DNA of 64,000 nucleotides from Tenacibaculum sp. Lineage in GTDB: Bacteria > Bacteroidota > Bacteroidia > Flavobacteriales > Flavobacteriaceae. The stretch spans positions 85,752 through 149,751 of the forward strand of contig NZ_JBNKHD010000003.1 of NCBI RefSeq assembly GCF_050290165.1. The letters are read 5' to 3'. Under the pieces are notes generated by a model. The model did not search any database. It was given only the letters and a program-made list of their open reading frames with translations, and was not told the DNA's origin. This document shows, piece after piece, positions 17,682 through 32,113 of this stretch (position 1 is its first letter; each line of letters begins with the position of its first letter). The translations under genes and the position numbers were made by a program.

Positions 17682-18062
17682 ATGAACATTCCATCAGAAT
17701 TAAAATACACTAAAGACCACGAATGGGTTAAGGTAGAAGGTGATGTAGCAACTATTGGTATTACCGATTTTGCACAAGGTGAGTTAGGAGATATCGTATA
17801 TGTAGATGTGGATACTTTAGATGATACTTTAGATGCAGAAGAAGTATTCGGTTCTGTAGAAGCAGTAAAAACTGTTTCAGATCTTTTTATGCCAGTATCA
17901 GGTGAAGTAGTAGAATTTAACGATGCTTTAGAGGACGAACCAGAATTGGTAAACTCTGATCCTTATGGAGAAGGATGGATGATAAAAGTAAAATTATCAG
18001 ACGATTCACAAGTAGCGGATTTATTAAGTGCTGAAGAATATCAAGAACTTATTAAAGGATAA
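17682..18062 (+). CDS. gcvH: Glycine cleavage system H protein
   Basis: [24 protein letters not shown] and lipoyl-lysine motif [10 protein letters not shown]. Confidence 0.97.
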
Positions 18063-18468: not shown

Positions 18469-19191
18469 ATGGAAATTAAGAAAAATCCAAAATCAAACTT
18501 AGAAAACTATAGTAAACTGTTTATGCAGATAGGTTTGGTTTTAGCTTTATTTGTAACGTATGTTGCTATTGAGAGTAAAACATATGATAAAGAGTATGGA
18601 GATTTAGGAGTGGCTAATATGGCTTCAGAAATTGAAGAAGAAACTATTGAGCTTCAAGTTGAGCCACCAAAGCCAAAACCAAATACCCCTCCACCACCAG
18701 CTCCTGAAAAAATTGAAGTAGTAGAAGACGAGAAAGAAGTAGAAGAGACAGTTATTGAGTCTACTGAAACAGACGAATCTGAAGCTGTAGAAGTAGAAGA
18801 TATTCAAGAAGTAGAAGAAGTAGAAGAAGTAGTAGAAGATGTACCTTTCGCTATCATTGAAGAGGTTCCTGTATTTCCTGGATGTACAGGTACTAAAGCT
18901 CAAAAGAAAGCTTGTTTAAATGAAAAATTACAAAAACACGTTCAACGTAATTTTAACGCTGAATTAGCTAACGAACTTGGATTATCACCAGGTAAAAAGA
19001 GAATTTACGTTCAATTTAAAATTGACAAAGATGGTTCTATTACTAATGTAGTGGCGAGAGCTCCGCATCCAAGGTTAAAACAAGAAGCAGAAAGAGTAGC
19101 AAAAAAGATACCAAAAATGGAACCAGGTAGACAAAGAGGTAGACCTGTAAGAGTAGGTTATACATTACCAATTACATTCAACGTTGAATAG
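18469..19191 (+). CDS. tonB: Energy transducer TonB (acidic, Pro-rich linker)
   Basis: N-terminal TM helix, PPKPKPNTPPPPAP linker and TonB_C domain (VPVFPGC...PGRQRGRPVRVGYTLPITF). Confidence 0.9.
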   Translation: MEIKKNPKSNLENYSKLFMQIGLVLALFVTYVAIESKTYDKEYGDLGVANMASEIEEETIELQVEPPKPKPNTPPPPAPEKIEVVEDEKEVEETVIESTETDESEAVEVEDIQEVEEVEEVVEDVPFAIIEEVPVFPGCTGTKAQKKACLNEKLQKHVQRNFNAELANELGLSPGKKRIYVQFKIDKDGSITNVVARAPHPRLKQEAERVAKKIPKMEPGRQRGRPVRVGYTLPITFNVE

Positions 19192-19210
19192 TTACTACTT
19201 ATTTAAAAAT

Positions 19211-19243
19211 AAAAAAAGCAACCCATTTTGGGTTGCTTTTTTT
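19211..19243 (+). terminator. Intrinsic terminator after first tonB
   Basis: AAAAAAAGCAACCCA-TTT-TGGGTTGCTTTTTTT. Confidence 0.85.
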
Positions 19244-19295
19244 ATTGGCATGTTTCTTGTTTTCAATAAAAACAATAATTATAAATACAATTACT

Positions 19296-20042
19296 ATGAA
19301 AACAACAAAAAAACATGCACGAAAGCAATTAGAGAGTTTCTCAACTATTTTTATGCAACTGGGTTTGGTGCTTGCCCTGTTTGTAGTTTTTCTTGTTTTA
19401 GAACACAAAACAGTTAAAGAAACAGCAATAGTACAACCGTCAACAGACAGAGTTTATGAACCTATACCTACATTTCAAAAGCCAATTATTGTTAAAAAAC
19501 TAGAACAGACAAAAGAAGTAATAAAAAAGAATGCTGTGCCTAAAGAACTTTTAAACCCTAAAGTTGTAGATAATAAAACAGATAACACAACTGTTGTAGA
19601 TACTCCAAAGAATGATATTCCTTTGATTAATTTGTCGAATTTGCCACAAGCGAAAGAAGAAGAGATTATAGAAACGAGTGATGATCCAGTTTCAATTAAC
19701 AATGTACAGAAATCACCTGTTTTTAAAGGATGTGAAGGTTTATCAGAGTTAGAGAATAGGAAATGCTTTGAAAGAAAAATACAGCAGCATATACAACGTA
19801 ATTTTAATGCAGATTTAGCTCAAGATGTAGGGTTGAGTTCAGGGAAATACAGAATTTCAACTCAGTTCGTTATTGACAAAACAGGAAAAATTACAGATAT
19901 ACAAATTAGAGCACCACATTACAAGTTAGAGAAGGAGGCTAATAGAGTAGTTCACAAAATTCCACAATTTCAACCAGGGAAACAGAATAATAAAGAGGTA
20001 AAAGTAAAGTATACGTTGCCAATTACTTTTAAAGTTGAATAG
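19296..20042 (+). CDS. tonB: Energy transducer TonB paralog
   Basis: Paralogous TM (FMQLGLVLAL) and TonB_C (PVFKGC...PGKQ...YTLPITF). The ATG at 19296 (MKTTKK) is preferred because the ORF-track start at 19233 lies inside the upstream terminator. Confidence 0.85.
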   Translation: MKTTKKHARKQLESFSTIFMQLGLVLALFVVFLVLEHKTVKETAIVQPSTDRVYEPIPTFQKPIIVKKLEQTKEVIKKNAVPKELLNPKVVDNKTDNTTVVDTPKNDIPLINLSNLPQAKEEEIIETSDDPVSINNVQKSPVFKGCEGLSELENRKCFERKIQQHIQRNFNADLAQDVGLSSGKYRISTQFVIDKTGKITDIQIRAPHYKLEKEANRVVHKIPQFQPGKQNNKEVKVKYTLPITFKVE

Positions 20043-20047
20043 AAAAC

Positions 20048-20076
20048 AAAAGCTCAATCAAAATGATTGAGCTTTT
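20048..20076 (+). terminator. Intrinsic terminator after second tonB
   Basis: AAAAGCTCAATCA-AAA-TGATTGAGCTTTT. Confidence 0.85.
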
Positions 20077-20266
20077 ATATGTAAAATATAAATAAACAAA
20101 TAGTTTTAATAAATGAATATGGGTACTGCTAGAATCTTAATAATAATGGCTTTACTATTTGTGTTGAAAGTGGGGACAAATATCAGCTGAAGAAGAATAA
20201 AATAATTAAAGTTTAATTTAATATTTATATAGGGTTAAAAAAACATTAAAATTTTTTAAAAAGTAT

Positions 20267-20297
20267 TTTGTAAAAATAAAATCTTGTCTTATATTTG
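20267..20297 (+). promoter_or_regulatory. Consensus Bacteroidota promoter (-33 TTTG, 19-nt spacer, -7 TATATTTG) with no downstream ORF
   Basis: TTTG at 20267-20270 and TATATTTG at 20290-20297. Confidence 0.7.
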
Positions 20298-20301
20298 AAT
20301 C

Positions 20302-20372
20302 GTGGTTGAAAAACCACTTTCTTTTTCTTTTTCATAGCAATTTTTCCCACTCAATTTTGAGTGGGTTTTTTT
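20302..20372 (+). ncRNA. Candidate ~70-nt small RNA
   Basis: Starts just after the consensus promoter: hairpin GTGGTT-GAAA-AACCAC, single-stranded pyrimidine tract ending in TTTTTCATAGC, then terminator CCCACTCA-ATTT-TGAGTGGG-T7. Confidence 0.6.
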
Positions 20373-20487
20373 ATGGGGTATTTTTAAAGTTAGATTTATT
20401 ACAACAGGATTTTACCCTCTAAAAGAAGAGAGTTTTCTACTAAGATAATCTAATACTTGGTTGTAGTTTTTAATTCTTAAAAAAGGC

Positions 20488-21978
20488 TTATGCTTTTGAG
20501 AATAGTGATTTGTAAAACACATATCCAAAACCAACAAAAAGCATTAAATGAAAAGGAAATAATCCGAAGTCTCCTCCTTGGTCACCTACTATAAAAGCAC
20601 TGTACATACCAAAAGCAAAATAAACAGCTAACAAGCCTTCGATAATTACATGTAATGATGGTTTTTTACGAATATATTTATTGGTTTTCCAACTATCTTT
20701 TAGTGATTTAATATTGAATTTTGGTGTTCTAACAAATTCACTTTTTTTACCTATATGTCCTTCTAATACAGCAATCGTATTATGTAGTGAGAAGCCCATC
20801 GCGATAGAAAAGAAAGCAAAAAAAGCTCCTATATATTTTATAAAGTTTATGAACCCTCCTCCGTAGGTTTTTTTGTACATAAACCAATAACAAATAAAGA
20901 AAATTATCGTGCTAACAATAAAAAAGCTCATCACTAAAAAGTAAATTCTTAAATGTGCATATTCATTTTTGATATACAACATAGGAATGCTTAATATAGC
21001 GACTAAAAAAATACAGGTAAACATAGAACTGTTTAACAAATGTAAAGTTCCATGAATTTTTGTTTTAAGCGAAATAGTATTGCTAGTAATAATTCTTTTT
21101 AGCATTTTTTGAAAGTTCTCAGCCCCTCCTTTGTTCCATCTAAATTGTTGAGAACGTGCAGCACTAATCACAACAGGTAATTCGGCAGGTGTAACTACAT
21201 TTTCTAAATATTTGAACTTCCATTTTTTTAATTGTGCTCGGTAGCTCAAGTCTAAATCTTCCGTTAAGGTGTCTCCTTCCCAGTTTCCTGCATCATAAAT
21301 ACATTCTTTACGCCATATACCAGCGGTACCATTAAAATTGATAAAATGACCTTGGCTATTACGTCCTACTTGCTCTAGTGTAAAATGAGCATCTAAGGCA
21401 AAAGCTTGAATTTTAGTTAAGGTTGAATAATTTCTGTTAATATGTCCCCATCTAGTTTGAACTACTCCAATTTCTGGATTTTTAAAATAAGGAACAGTCT
21501 CTAAAAGCCAGTTTGTTTCAGGTAAAAAATCGGCATCAAAAATAGCTATAAACTCGCCTTTAGCAGTTTTAAGTCCTTCTTTTAAAGCTCCGGCTTTAAA
21601 ACCTTGACGATTTTCGCGTCGAATATGTTGAATGTCTAAACCTGTTTTTTGAAGTTCTTCTATTTGTTTTGCAGTACTTTCAACCGATTCATCTGTAGAA
21701 TCATCTAATACTTGAATTTCTAATTTTTCGCGAGGATATTCTAGTTTAGCAATATTGTTTAGCAAACGTTCCATTACATACAATTCGTTAAAAACGGGTA
21801 ATTGAATAGTTACAAATGGAATTTCATCTGGGTTTGTAAAATCAAATTTAGGTGAGTTGTCATTTTTCTTTCTTGCTCTTAAATAATTAAGAAGTAAGTT
21901 TAATTGCGCTAAAGCGTATAATAAAATAAGAACTAATGATATAGTGTATAGCGTAATTATTGTGTATTCTAAAACCAT
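20488..21978 (-). CDS. Glycosyltransferase family 2, cellulose-synthase-like processive membrane GT
   Basis: D,D,D,QxxRW signature (LDDSTD, IFDADF, TEDLDL, QQFRW), KAGAL and multiple C-terminal TM helices. Confidence 0.9.
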   Translation of the reverse strand: MVLEYTIITLYTISLVLILLYALAQLNLLLNYLRARKKNDNSPKFDFTNPDEIPFVTIQLPVFNELYVMERLLNNIAKLEYPREKLEIQVLDDSTDESVESTAKQIEELQKTGLDIQHIRRENRQGFKAGALKEGLKTAKGEFIAIFDADFLPETNWLLETVPYFKNPEIGVVQTRWGHINRNYSTLTKIQAFALDAHFTLEQVGRNSQGHFINFNGTAGIWRKECIYDAGNWEGDTLTEDLDLSYRAQLKKWKFKYLENVVTPAELPVVISAARSQQFRWNKGGAENFQKMLKRIITSNTISLKTKIHGTLHLLNSSMFTCIFLVAILSIPMLYIKNEYAHLRIYFLVMSFFIVSTIIFFICYWFMYKKTYGGGFINFIKYIGAFFAFFSIAMGFSLHNTIAVLEGHIGKKSEFVRTPKFNIKSLKDSWKTNKYIRKKPSLHVIIEGLLAVYFAFGMYSAFIVGDQGGDFGLFPFHLMLFVGFGYVFYKSLFSKA

Positions 21979-31664: not shown

Positions 31665-32033
31665 TTGTTAAAGAAAGTAAGCATATTTTTTCTTGTTGGA
31701 TTGTACATGGTCGCCATGTTACGTCCCATAGCTCCTTTTGTTGAGTATGCAATAAACTATGATTATATATCAAAGGTTTTGTGTATCAATAAAGATAAGC
31801 CGGAGCTTGCCTGTAATGGAAAATGTCAGCTTATGAAAAAACTTGAAAAACAACAAGACGATGATTATAAATCGTTACGAATTTCAATGGAAGAATATCC
31901 AATAGGGTTTGTAACTATTTTAGATATTGAAACTCAAAAGCTTTTTTCATCGATATCGAAAAAGCATTTTAATTATAATAGAAACTATTTCTATTTATCT
32001 AGTGACAAGATATTCCACCCTCCTACAGTTTAA
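31665..32033 (+). CDS. Membrane-anchored Cys-motif leader protein (CINKDKPELACNGKC; C-terminal IFHPP), CruR/CutF(DUF2946)-like candidate uORF
   Basis: N-terminal hydrophobic segment, C40 plus C50xxxC54, and a di-proline motif 2 codons before the stop. It sits directly upstream of a metal TBDT. TTG start. Confidence 0.75.
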   Translation: MLKKVSIFFLVGLYMVAMLRPIAPFVEYAINYDYISKVLCINKDKPELACNGKCQLMKKLEKQQDDDYKSLRISMEEYPIGFVTILDIETQKLFSSISKKHFNYNRNYFYLSSDKIFHPPTV

Positions 32034-32034
32034 A

Positions 32035-32113
32035 TTTTACATACCACTTTTTTTTCAACGCAAACAATTCAAAATTTTTGAATTGATATGTGTTGCTATA
32101 TAATTATGTAAAA
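32035..32113 (+). other. Long intergenic RNA stem-loop between leader ORF and TBDT
   Basis: Outer pairing TTTTACATA(32035-43)/TATGTAAAA(32105-13); middle CAACGC/GTGTTG (32056-61/32090-95); inner CAATTCAAAA/TTTTGAATTG (32065-74/32076-85). Confidence 0.5.

What the first reader, a model, noticed from the sequence alone, without database searches (positions are those of the whole stretch)
20267..20372. Orphan transcription unit: ~70-nt sRNA candidate displaying an anti-start-codon tract
Seen: a consensus promoter (-33 TTTG / 19 nt / -7 TATATTTG) with no ORF behind it, then a GNRA-capped hairpin GTGGTT-GAAA-AACCAC, an unpaired UUUCUUUUUCUUUUUCAUAGC, and a strong plus-strand terminator (8-bp stem, U7). 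The upstream tonB already has its own terminator (20048-76), and neither hairpin has a U-tract on the minus strand, so these are not just gene-end terminators. The unpaired tract is the reverse complement of GCUAUGAAAAAGAAAAAG, i.e. AUG-Lys-Lys starts, which are very common in this phylum. In this window it matches the start of the 1-2126 gene over 10 nt (2119-2128). Inference: a trans-acting sRNA that targets start codons rather than SD sequences, fitting SD-independent translation in Bacteroidota.
Basis: partly seen in the sequence, partly recalled or inferred. Interest (0 to 1): 0.75.

Follow-up and report, generated by a model that had tools for sequence, protein, structure and literature searches.

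The report
Conserved small RNA gene family member
The finding is a real ~70-nt small RNA gene: an extra copy of an undescribed small RNA found in about 87% of Flavobacteriaceae genera (usually just after the chaperone gene dnaJ), whose invariant pyrimidine-rich stretch is probably its working part, though what it binds is not yet known.

Summary
It comprises a Bacteroidota-type promoter (TTTG, 19 nt, TATATTTG), a 5' hairpin starting at the predicted +1 (20302), an unpaired U/C-rich tract, and an 8-bp terminator with U7.

It is not an orphan. A covariance model built from relatives finds the same unit in 261 of 301 Flavobacteriaceae genomes (260 of 300 genera) and in no other family of the order.

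Most genera have one copy. In 20 of 20 genera inspected it lies just after the dnaJ stop, with its own promoter. The window's genus (Tenacibaculum) has several copies. The window copy is a paralog whose tonB-like/GT2 neighbourhood recurs in at least 6 congeners.

Three results place the RNA on the + strand:
- Both stems covary strongly (97-99% paired, 0 of 500 shuffles).
- G·U pairs fit only the + strand.
- The -7 box sits at a fixed offset.

UUCUUUUUCAUAGCAA+U4 never varies, while 100 of 114 5' hairpins differ. Seven viral contigs carry units with the same tract but different stems.

There is no Rfam family, no paper and no conserved antisense ORF for it.

The "anti-start-codon" idea stays unproven. 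There is no conserved long target, and pairing to start regions is only weakly enriched.

The parts
20267..20270 (+). -33 promoter element TTTG
   Evidence: Read; lies 19 nt upstream of the -7 box. A T-rich/TTG region at this position recurs in relatives (position table).
20290..20297 (+). -7 promoter box TATATTTG (Bacteroidota sigma-A consensus TAnnTTTG)
   Evidence: An exact TAnnTTTG ends within -5..+4 nt of the model start in 81 of 111 related units, 56 at the same offset. Present in 20 of 20 dnaJ-linked copies. The consensus position of -12 to -5 comes from PMC9723704.
20302..20372 (+). Predicted primary sRNA transcript, about 69-71 nt (+1 inferred as G20302, 5 nt after the -7 box)
   Evidence: Covariance model R1 match at 20296-20369, 69.6 bits, E = 7e-12. 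Fold. The TSS and the 3' end are inferred, not measured.
20302..20317 (+). 5' stem-loop GUGGUU-GAAA-AACCAC, the variable and covarying domain
   Evidence: All 7 modelled pairs of helix 1 show compensatory changes and 96.9-98.8% of cells are paired. 100 distinct hairpin sequences occur among 114 units.
20318..20345 (+). Single-stranded pyrimidine-rich tract. The family-invariant core UUCUUUUUCAUAGCAA is at 20325-20340, followed by U5 at 20341-20345.
   Evidence: Unpaired in the MFE and centroid folds. The core is invariant in 23 units from 20 genera. The same tract occurs in 7 viral contigs with different stems.
20346..20372 (+). Rho-independent terminator: 8-bp stem CCCACUCA/UGAGUGGG, loop AUUU, U7
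   Evidence: Helix 2 is 97.9-99% paired with compensatory changes at its inner pairs (CCCACUC in this clade, CCCAUCC elsewhere). The U·G pair in 13 of 23 sequences fits the + strand only.
19233..20042 (+). Upstream neighbour: TonB_C-domain protein, with its own terminator-like hairpin at 20046-20078
   Evidence: Pfam TonB_C, E = 2.3e-12. Hairpin. The same neighbour lies upstream of the orthologous sRNA copy in 6 same-genus genomes.
20488..21978 (-). Downstream convergent neighbour: family-2 glycosyltransferase. Because it converges, the unit cannot be a 5' leader here.
   Evidence: Pfam Glyco_tranf_2_3, E = 2.4e-23. The convergent GT2 is also present in L003, L006 and L008.

Best explanation
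Window 20302-20372 (+) is a gene for a ~70-nt non-coding RNA. It is a paralog of a small RNA conserved across the family Flavobacteriaceae, whose ancestral single copy lies immediately downstream of dnaJ.

Proposed workings:
- It is transcribed from its own sigma-A-type promoter (-33 TTTG, -7 TATATTTG).
- The transcript begins directly with a 5' stem-loop. The stem's sequence is free to vary as long as it pairs, so it is most likely a 5'-end-protecting or scaffold element.
- It then presents an invariant, unpaired tract, (U)UUCUUUUUCAUAGCAAUUUU.
- It ends at an intrinsic terminator.
- The tract is the functional site. Most likely it is a seed that base-pairs in trans with purine-rich mRNA sites of the form 5'-UUGCUAUGAAAAAG-3', meaning translation-initiation regions of genes that start AUG-AAA-AAG (Met-Lys-Lys), which would block initiation.

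What is shown: the gene architecture, the strand, the family, the synteny, the covariation and the invariance of the tract.

What is inferred: transcription itself, action in trans, base-pairing, and the identity of the targets.

My odds: real independent sRNA gene family about 0.9; acts through the tract by RNA-RNA pairing about 0.55; start-codon regions are the main targets about 0.3.
For: (1) Family. Model R1 matches 261 of 301 Flavobacteriaceae genomes, or 260 of 300 genera. It matches none of about 178 genomes from other families of the order. It finds 5 convincing copies plus 1 weak one in the window's own genome.

(2) Synteny. In 20 of 20 genera the copy follows the dnaJ stop codon (...DKSFFEKVKDMFS*, DnaJ_C domain) on the same strand, with its own TAtATTTG box. 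The own genome has grpE-dnaJ-sRNA-rnpB. The window paralog's tonB-like/GT2 context recurs in at least 6 congeners.

(3) Structure. 98.9% and 97.5% of cells are paired, 11 of 16 and 10 of 16 pairs have compensatory changes, and the covariation score is 0.545-0.584 against 0.03-0.17 for slid controls, with 0 of 500 shuffles reaching it.

(4) Strand. G·U and U·G pairs are frequent, for example U·G in 13 of 23 at one terminator pair; on the minus strand these would be A·C mismatches. The U-tract lies on the + strand only. The -7 box is at a fixed offset in 81 of 111 units.

(5) The tract is the constrained part. UUCUUUUUCAUAGCAA+U4 is invariant across 20 genera, while 100 of 114 5' hairpins differ. 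Seven IMG/VR viral contigs, one a 100%-complete 37.5-kb phage, keep the tract and the hairpin/tract/terminator layout but use different stems.

(6) Start regions. The tract is predicted to pair with start regions somewhat better than composition-matched shuffles: 57 against 28.7±13.3 start regions at or below -12 kcal/mol, with 1 of 39 shuffles as high. For internal windows the figures are 49 against 35.2.

(7) Non-coding. Antisense ORFs in paralogs are 29, 16, 12, 15 and 9 aa with no shared peptide (read directly). No Rfam family reaches threshold.
Against:
- No conserved or extended target. The best non-self complement in the genome scores 20 of 24 with wobbles. 17-mers with up to 2 mismatches are not enriched, 156 non-self against 147 control in 20 genomes. 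The 20 best sites in other genera precede unrelated exported proteins or are diverged sRNA copies.
- Only 24 of 2707 genes here start ATGAAAAAG, and 38 have GCT at -3..-1.
- A 16-20-nt invariant stretch is longer than a typical seed, which would also fit a protein or a single conserved RNA partner.
- Neither Hfq nor RRM_1 proteins are encoded, so no known chaperone is available.
- The 5' hairpin is followed by a U-rich run and could terminate some transcripts early.
- 97 of 104 units are co-oriented with the upstream gene at 40-130 nt, so a cis role, such as shared terminator or 3'-UTR processing, may coexist.
Confidence: 0.55

Rival explanations
1. Protein-binding or sponge RNA. The invariant U/C-rich tract is a binding platform for a conserved single-strand RNA-binding protein, such as ribosomal protein S1, a KH- or cold-shock-type protein, or an RNase. 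The RNA titrates or recruits that protein instead of pairing with mRNAs.
For: The invariant stretch of 16 nt plus U4 across 20 genera is longer than a usual seed. No conserved complementary target was found. Phage copies keep only the tract, which would also suit hijacking of a host protein.
Against: No candidate protein was identified: RRM_1 and Hfq are absent. Predicted pairing shows weak but real start-region enrichment. The GC-containing CAUAGCAA block looks like a seed.
Confidence: 0.2
2. Mainly a cis-acting element. The unit serves as the terminator or 3'-UTR module of the co-oriented upstream gene, or as an attenuating leader for the downstream gene. The small RNA would then be a by-product.
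For: The upstream gene is co-oriented in 97 of 104 units, typically 40-130 nt away, and 72 of 88 units have both neighbours co-oriented. Many upstream genes have no other terminator.
Against: The unit's own -7 box sits at a fixed offset. In the window, tonB already has its own hairpin and the downstream gene is convergent. Downstream genes are unrelated (rnpB, an ABC ATPase, enolase, a cyoE-like gene, an AsmA-like gene). The ABC gene has its own conserved TAtcTTTAC box. A plain terminator would not keep a 16-nt invariant unpaired tract.
Confidence: 0.1
3. A DNA-level element. The tract is the attachment core for temperate phages or integrative elements, which would use the sRNA gene as they use tRNA genes. 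Alternatively the unit is a dispersed repeat, with the paralogs being scars of integration and not selected RNA genes.
For: Seven viral contigs carry the tract. In provirus L192 the unit directly follows a tyrosine integrase, phrog_1, E = 1e-40. In L186 it lies at a junction between phage-like and host-like genes.
Against: No integrase homologue lies next to any of about 130 chromosomal units, nor next to the own-genome copies. Most genera have a single copy at a fixed syntenic site. The covariation respects G·U pairs, which is RNA-level selection. A complete phage carries the unit among structural genes, away from any integrase. The window paralog is kept at the same locus in at least 6 species. 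Use as an attB site could coexist with RNA function.
Confidence: 0.07
4. The minus strand is the functional one: an mRNA with a 5' hairpin encoding a short Met-Lys-Lys-Lys... peptide (29 aa in the window).
For: ATG AAA AAG AAA on the minus strand is preceded by an A-rich leader. The minus strand folds almost as well: -18.9 kcal/mol, z = -4.5.
Against: ORF length and sequence are not conserved: 29, 16, 12, 15 and 9 aa in the own genome, and about 7 aa or open in other genera. There is no promoter box or terminator on the minus strand. G·U pairs become A·C on that strand.
Confidence: 0.02

Closest known systems
FopS / GibS sRNAs of Bacteroides thetaiotaomicron (PMC11697453)
   Same: Both are Bacteroidota. 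Both are 65-70-nt multicopy paralogous sRNAs driven by canonical sigma-A (TAnnTTTG) promoters. Both have a conserved single-stranded seed plus a Rho-independent terminator. FopS binds next to start codons (of susC mRNAs) and blocks initiation. A copy of FopS is also seen in a phage.
   Different: No sequence or model similarity: the paper says FopS was deposited in Rfam, yet no such hit appears even at E ≤ 10. The FopS seed is at the extreme 5' end, whereas here a 5' hairpin comes first. FopS works with the RRM protein RbpB, and this genome has no RRM_1 protein. FopS is confined to Bacteroidaceae; this family is confined to Flavobacteriaceae and has a single-copy ancestral locus at dnaJ.
Rfp sRNAs of Flavobacterium psychrophilum, e.g. 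Rfp18 (PMC9723704)
   Same: They are experimentally detected sRNAs in the same bacterial family, with sigma-A promoters and predicted base-pairing to mRNAs.
   Different: None of the listed Rfp1-89 sequences contains UCAUAGCA. Rfp18 has at least 3 stem-loops and pairs through a loop. A large genus, g190 (probably Flavobacterium; that identification is inferred), has the present RNA in only 2 of 11 genomes.
Sibling or multicopy seed sRNAs of Proteobacteria (OmrA/B, Qrr1-5)
   Same: Several paralogs share an identical seed and terminator while other parts diverge, which suggests dosage or differential expression.
   Different: Those sRNAs depend on Hfq, and no Hfq is encoded here. They target SD regions, and Bacteroidota largely lack SD-led initiation.
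tRNA and tmRNA genes used as phage integration sites
   Same: A conserved small RNA gene, part of which is carried by phages or proviruses, in one case beside an integrase.
   Different: Only one integrase-adjacent case was found and no attL/attR pair was demonstrated. Chromosomal copies are not next to integrases.

Membership tests
Flavobacteriaceae dnaJ-linked sRNA family (defined here by model R1) | Match to the covariance model: 5' hairpin, tract and terminator | tested here: met
   Window 20296-20369, 69.6 bits, E = 7e-12, full length 1-75.
Flavobacteriaceae dnaJ-linked sRNA family (defined here by model R1) | Invariant tract UUCUUUUUCAUAGCAA followed by at least 4 U, unpaired | tested here: met
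   Located at 20325-20345 and unpaired in the MFE and centroid folds.
Flavobacteriaceae dnaJ-linked sRNA family (defined here by model R1) | Own TAnnTTTG box ending about 4 nt before the 5' hairpin | tested here: met
   TATATTTG at 20290-20297, hairpin from 20302. This is the modal offset of 56 related units.
Flavobacteriaceae dnaJ-linked sRNA family (defined here by model R1) | Location directly downstream of dnaJ | tested here: not met
   The window copy follows a TonB_C gene. The genome's dnaJ-linked copy is C1:33101-33176. The window copy is therefore a paralog, not the ancestral locus.
FopS/GibS (Bacteroides) | Sequence and structure similarity to the family model | tested here: not met
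   No Bacteroides sRNA family appears among Rfam 15 hits, even at E ≤ 10 over 20000-20520. Whether FopS is in release 15 rests on the paper's statement that it was deposited.
FopS/GibS (Bacteroides) | Single-stranded seed at the very 5' end | tested here: not met
   The predicted +1 starts a 6-9-bp hairpin and the tract follows it.
FopS/GibS (Bacteroides) | RRM-1 protein partner (RbpB) | tested here: not met
   PF00076 is absent from the genome, while the B. thetaiotaomicron control is positive.
FopS/GibS (Bacteroides) | Represses translation by pairing beside start codons | not testable with these tools
   Only in-silico hints are available.
Rfam sub-threshold hits (STnc480, anti-hemB, Ref84) | Score at or above the family's gathering threshold | tested here: not met
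   32.3 against 72, 22.6 against 49.5 and 28.6 against 52 bits. The alignments rest on the terminator and U/A runs.
Plain intrinsic terminator of a flanking gene | No own promoter, and nothing conserved beyond the stem and U-tract | tested here: not met
   There is a fixed-offset promoter and an invariant 16-nt unpaired tract, and tonB has a separate hairpin.
Small-ORF mRNA (antisense 29-aa ORF) | Conserved reading frame and peptide among homologues | tested here: not met
   Antisense ORFs of 29, 16, 12, 15 and 9 aa with unrelated sequences, and about 7 aa in other genera.
MITE/REP-like dispersed repeat | Many copies per genome with terminal inverted repeats or target duplications, and no fixed locus | tested here: not met
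   Most genera have a single copy at a syntenic dnaJ site. Paralog loci are conserved between species. Terminal repeats and target duplications were not specifically searched for.

The most novel reading that the evidence does not exclude
A family-wide 'anti-initiation-region' riboregulator. In a lineage that initiates translation without Shine-Dalgarno pairing, one conserved sRNA (multiplied in some genera) uses an invariant 16-20-nt tract to mask the AUG and the first Lys codons, plus the -5..-1 positions, of a regulon of mostly exported Met-Lys-Lys proteins. Phages would carry their own copies of the tract to tap into this circuit. In addition or instead, temperate phages may use the sRNA gene as an attachment site, as they do tRNA genes.
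Probability: 0.22. Interest if true: 0.8.

Novelty: new member of a known kind. Interest (0 to 1): 0.62.

Why it matters
Very few regulatory RNAs are known in Bacteroidota outside gut Bacteroides, and none is known that is conserved across the ecologically dominant marine family Flavobacteriaceae.

This RNA is present in about 87% of sampled genera at a fixed locus beside the dnaJ heat-shock operon. It has a completely invariant unpaired tract, it has been amplified in Tenacibaculum and Polaribacter, and it is copied by phages. That makes it a strong candidate for a core post-transcriptional regulator in a group that lacks both Hfq and RRM-type chaperones.

It also gives a concrete, testable handle on how sRNAs control translation where Shine-Dalgarno pairing is not used. 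Finally, it could be added to RNA family databases, which would improve annotation of thousands of genomes.

Tried and rejected
- Rfam 15 at gathering threshold on the window, on 20 dnaJ loci and on the own-genome paralogs: only RNase P and tRNAs nearby. An E-value scan gave only sub-threshold, terminator-driven hits.
- A long perfect target in the own genome: none beyond the sRNA genes themselves.
- RNAduplex against about 9,800 candidate start regions: no outlier, minimum -18.7 against a mean of -7.2 with sd 2.6.
- 17-mer complement with up to 2 mismatches in 20 genomes: no enrichment over the reversed control. The best 20 sites precede unrelated exported proteins or are diverged sRNA copies.
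- Pairing with neighbouring grpE, dnaJ or rnpB: nothing notable.
- Pairing with 16S, the spacer or 23S of a congener: best -15.4 kcal/mol, worse than the mean of shuffled tracts at -16.7.
- Chaperones: no RRM_1 and no Hfq.
- Cis-leader of the downstream ABC gene: rejected, because that gene has its own conserved promoter-like box.
- Integrase next to chromosomal copies: none.
- Literature: the tract sequence is in no held paper, is not among the F. psychrophilum Rfp RNAs, and no sRNA study of Tenacibaculum, Polaribacter or Zobellia was found.
- The weak sixth own-genome hit (C17:68297-68377) lacks AUAGCAA and lies in a prophage-like region. I do not count it as a member.
- Weak model hits at window 31939-32090 and 19187-19240 are chance.

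Full report
**1. The observation**

- TTTG at 20267-20270, a 19-nt spacer, then TATATTTG at 20290-20297.
- A hairpin GTGGTT-GAAA-AACCAC at 20302-20317.
- An unpaired run TTTCTTTTTCTTTTTCATAGCAATTTTT at 20318-20345.
- An 8-bp stem CCCACTCA/TGAGTGGG at 20346-20365.
- T7 at 20366-20372.

The terminator scan reports both hairpins on the + strand only.

The unit sits in a 445-nt gap between convergent genes. Upstream is a TonB_C-domain protein at 19233-20042 (+), which has its own hairpin at 20046-20078. Downstream is a family-2 glycosyltransferase at 20488-21978 (-).

The 71-nt RNA folds into the two hairpins with the tract unpaired, at -20.9 kcal/mol and z = -5.2.

According to the F. psychrophilum TSS map, the sigma-A box TAnnTTTG occupies -12 to -5 (PMC9723704). 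That puts +1 at G20302, the first base of the 5' stem.

**2. It is not an orphan**

BLAST of the spacer against 40 relatives showed that window 20321-20375 recurs at 90-98% identity, several times per genome, in the window's genus. Longer matches start exactly at the -7 box.

The genus is Tenacibaculum in the GTDB sense. I infer this from contig-length identities between anonymous handles and named records. For example, G005:C51 at 378,015 nt matches a T. geojense contig, and G015:C72 at 20,153 nt matches an uncultured Tenacibaculum contig.

These were in Tenacibaculum, Polaribacter, Lutibacter, Aureibaculum, Flavicella, Namhaeicola, Lutimonas and others.

I built a covariance model, R1, with 16 base pairs from nine units. 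Its results:
- It matches 261 of 301 Flavobacteriaceae genomes, which is 260 of 300 genera, mostly once per genome.
- It matches none of about 178 genomes from other families of the order.
- In one large genus, g190, it matches only 2 of 11 genomes.
- The window's genome has five good copies and one weak hit.

**3. Ancestral locus**

In 20 of 20 genera examined, the copy lies directly after the stop codon of dnaJ (C-terminus ...DKSFFEKVKDMFS, Pfam DnaJ_C). It is on the same strand and preceded by its own TAtATTTG box.

Downstream is either RNase P RNA or an ABC ATPase gene:
- RNase P RNA follows in the Tenacibaculum/Aureibaculum-like group. The own genome has grpE-dnaJ-sRNA-rnpB.
- The ABC ATPase gene carries its own conserved TAtcTTTAC box, so the unit is not its leader.

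Among 114 units from the pattern scan, 48 follow dnaJ. The rest fall into a few recurrent loci, located before enolase, a cyoE-like gene or an AsmA-like gene.

The window copy is one such paralog. The TonB_C gene upstream and the convergent GT2 gene recur around the orthologous copy in at least six congeners. One congener has five copies in about 930 nt.

**4. RNA-level selection on the + strand**

On 23 units from 20 genera:
- 98.9% of pair cells are canonical.
- 11 of 16 pairs show double (compensatory) changes.
- The covariation score is 0.545, against 0.06-0.17 when the 3' partners are slid.
- 0 of 500 shuffles reach any of the five measures.

On 113 distinct units the figures are 97.5% paired and a score of 0.584, with 0 of 500 shuffles reaching the observed value for four of the five measures. 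The number of pairs with a double change was reached by 62 of 500. All seven pairs of the 5' helix covary.

G·U and U·G pairs are common. One terminator pair is U·G in 13 of 23 sequences. On the minus strand these would be A·C mismatches.

An exact TAnnTTTG box ends within a few nucleotides of the model start in 81 of 111 units, and in 56 of them at the identical offset. A rough estimate from base composition gives below 1% for a 10-nt window by chance.

Antisense ORFs are 29, 16, 12, 15 and 9 aa in this genome, with no common peptide. The antisense-ORF reading is therefore rejected.

**5. What is constrained**

Across the 20 genera, UUCUUUUUCAUAGCAA plus at least four U never changes. By contrast, 100 of 114 5' hairpins have different sequences, and the terminator stem switches between CCCACUC and CCCAUCC types through compensatory change.

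Seven IMG/VR viral contigs contain the tract within units of the same layout but with unrelated stems, for example CGCUCC...GGGAGCG. Among them:
- One unit follows a tyrosine integrase at a provirus end.
- One lies among structural genes of a 37.5-kb phage that CheckV rates 100% complete.

No integrase lies beside the chromosomal copies. Phage attachment therefore cannot explain the family, although it may exploit it.

**6. Function**

The tract is the reverse complement of UUGCUAUGAAAAAGAA. It also has a precedent in Bacteroides FopS sRNAs, which block susC initiation next to the start codon (PMC11697453).

I could not substantiate it:
- No extended complement exists in the genome.
- Near-perfect 17-mers are not enriched in 20 genomes: 156 non-self against 147 control.
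- The best sites in other genera precede unrelated exported proteins.
- Only 24 of 2707 genes here start ATGAAAAAG, and 38 have GCU at -3..-1.

A composition-controlled test gives a weak positive. 57 start regions pair at or below -12 kcal/mol, against 28.7±13.3 for 39 shuffled tracts, with 1 of 39 shuffles as high. For internal windows the figures are 49 against 35.2.

Several other possibilities were checked:
- The tract is not complementary to rRNA.
- It is not complementary to the neighbouring rnpB, dnaJ or grpE.
- The genome encodes neither Hfq nor an RRM_1 protein.

A protein-binding role is therefore a serious rival.

**7. Known or new**

No Rfam 15 family matches. The tract occurs in no held paper. 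It is not among the 89 F. psychrophilum Rfp RNAs.

Two earlier first-stage notes of this scan flagged the same element after dnaJ in other genomes. They are unchecked leads. They agree with, but do not add to, what I verified here.

I file it as a new sRNA family, which is a new member of a known kind. The window copy is a paralog.

**8. Limits**

Transcription, the RNA ends, action in trans and the targets are all inferred.

Noticed in passing
L186-L192 (IMG/VR contigs), e.g. L191:458-526, L186:2961-3029, L192:1208-1277: Phage and provirus contigs carry sRNA-like units with the identical invariant tract but different 5' and terminator stems. In L192 the unit directly follows a tyrosine integrase. 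The record behind L191 is a 100%-complete 37.5-kb phage. This could be a phage mimic of a host sRNA, or use of the sRNA gene as an attachment site.
   Followed up: partly
L091:1-927 (uncultured Tenacibaculum contig; same as G003:C18): A tandem array of five complete sRNA units within about 930 nt, spaced roughly 170-280 nt apart, upstream of a 925-aa gene.
   Followed up: partly
own genome C1:32746-33176 (locus L140): The genome's ancestral copy lies in the order grpE-dnaJ-sRNA-RNase P RNA, all on one strand. In several genera two sRNA copies precede rnpB (L146, L148, L156).
   Followed up: yes
L149-L165, 20-35 nt upstream of the ABC ATPase start codon: A strongly conserved ACATTTAATATCTTTAC motif lies upstream of the ABC-transporter ATPase gene that follows the sRNA in many genera. 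It may be a promoter variant (TAnnTTTA) or an operator.
   Followed up: no
L171 and L175 (G129:C1:~1128100, G265:C1:~1014680), also L168: Diverged elements with ...AAGTGGAAAA(G/A)ATATGCTATGAAAAAGAA..., similar between two genera. They look like degenerate extra sRNA copies on the opposite strand that the model missed.
   Followed up: no
own genome C17:62000-74000: A prophage-like region with a holin-like ORF and three paralogous genes starting MKQNKETLKQFFETGDKPTQQQY. It contains a hairpin-CUUUUUCUUUUUC-terminator unit at C17:68297-68377 that lacks AUAGCAA.
   Followed up: partly
own-genome copies C1:33101, C1:302181 and C1:316959; L017; prophage L192: A subgroup of 5' hairpins shares the loop motif AGACGU despite different stems, and this includes the prophage copy. 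It could be a second functional site.
   Followed up: no
window 18469-20042: Two tandem TonB_C-domain genes of 240 and 269 aa lie just upstream of the sRNA, preceded by gcvH (17682-18062).
   Followed up: partly
window 20113-20190: A 25-aa hydrophobic ORF (MNMGTARILIIMALLFVLKVGTNIS) lies between the tonB terminator and the sRNA promoter. Its conservation was not examined.
   Followed up: no
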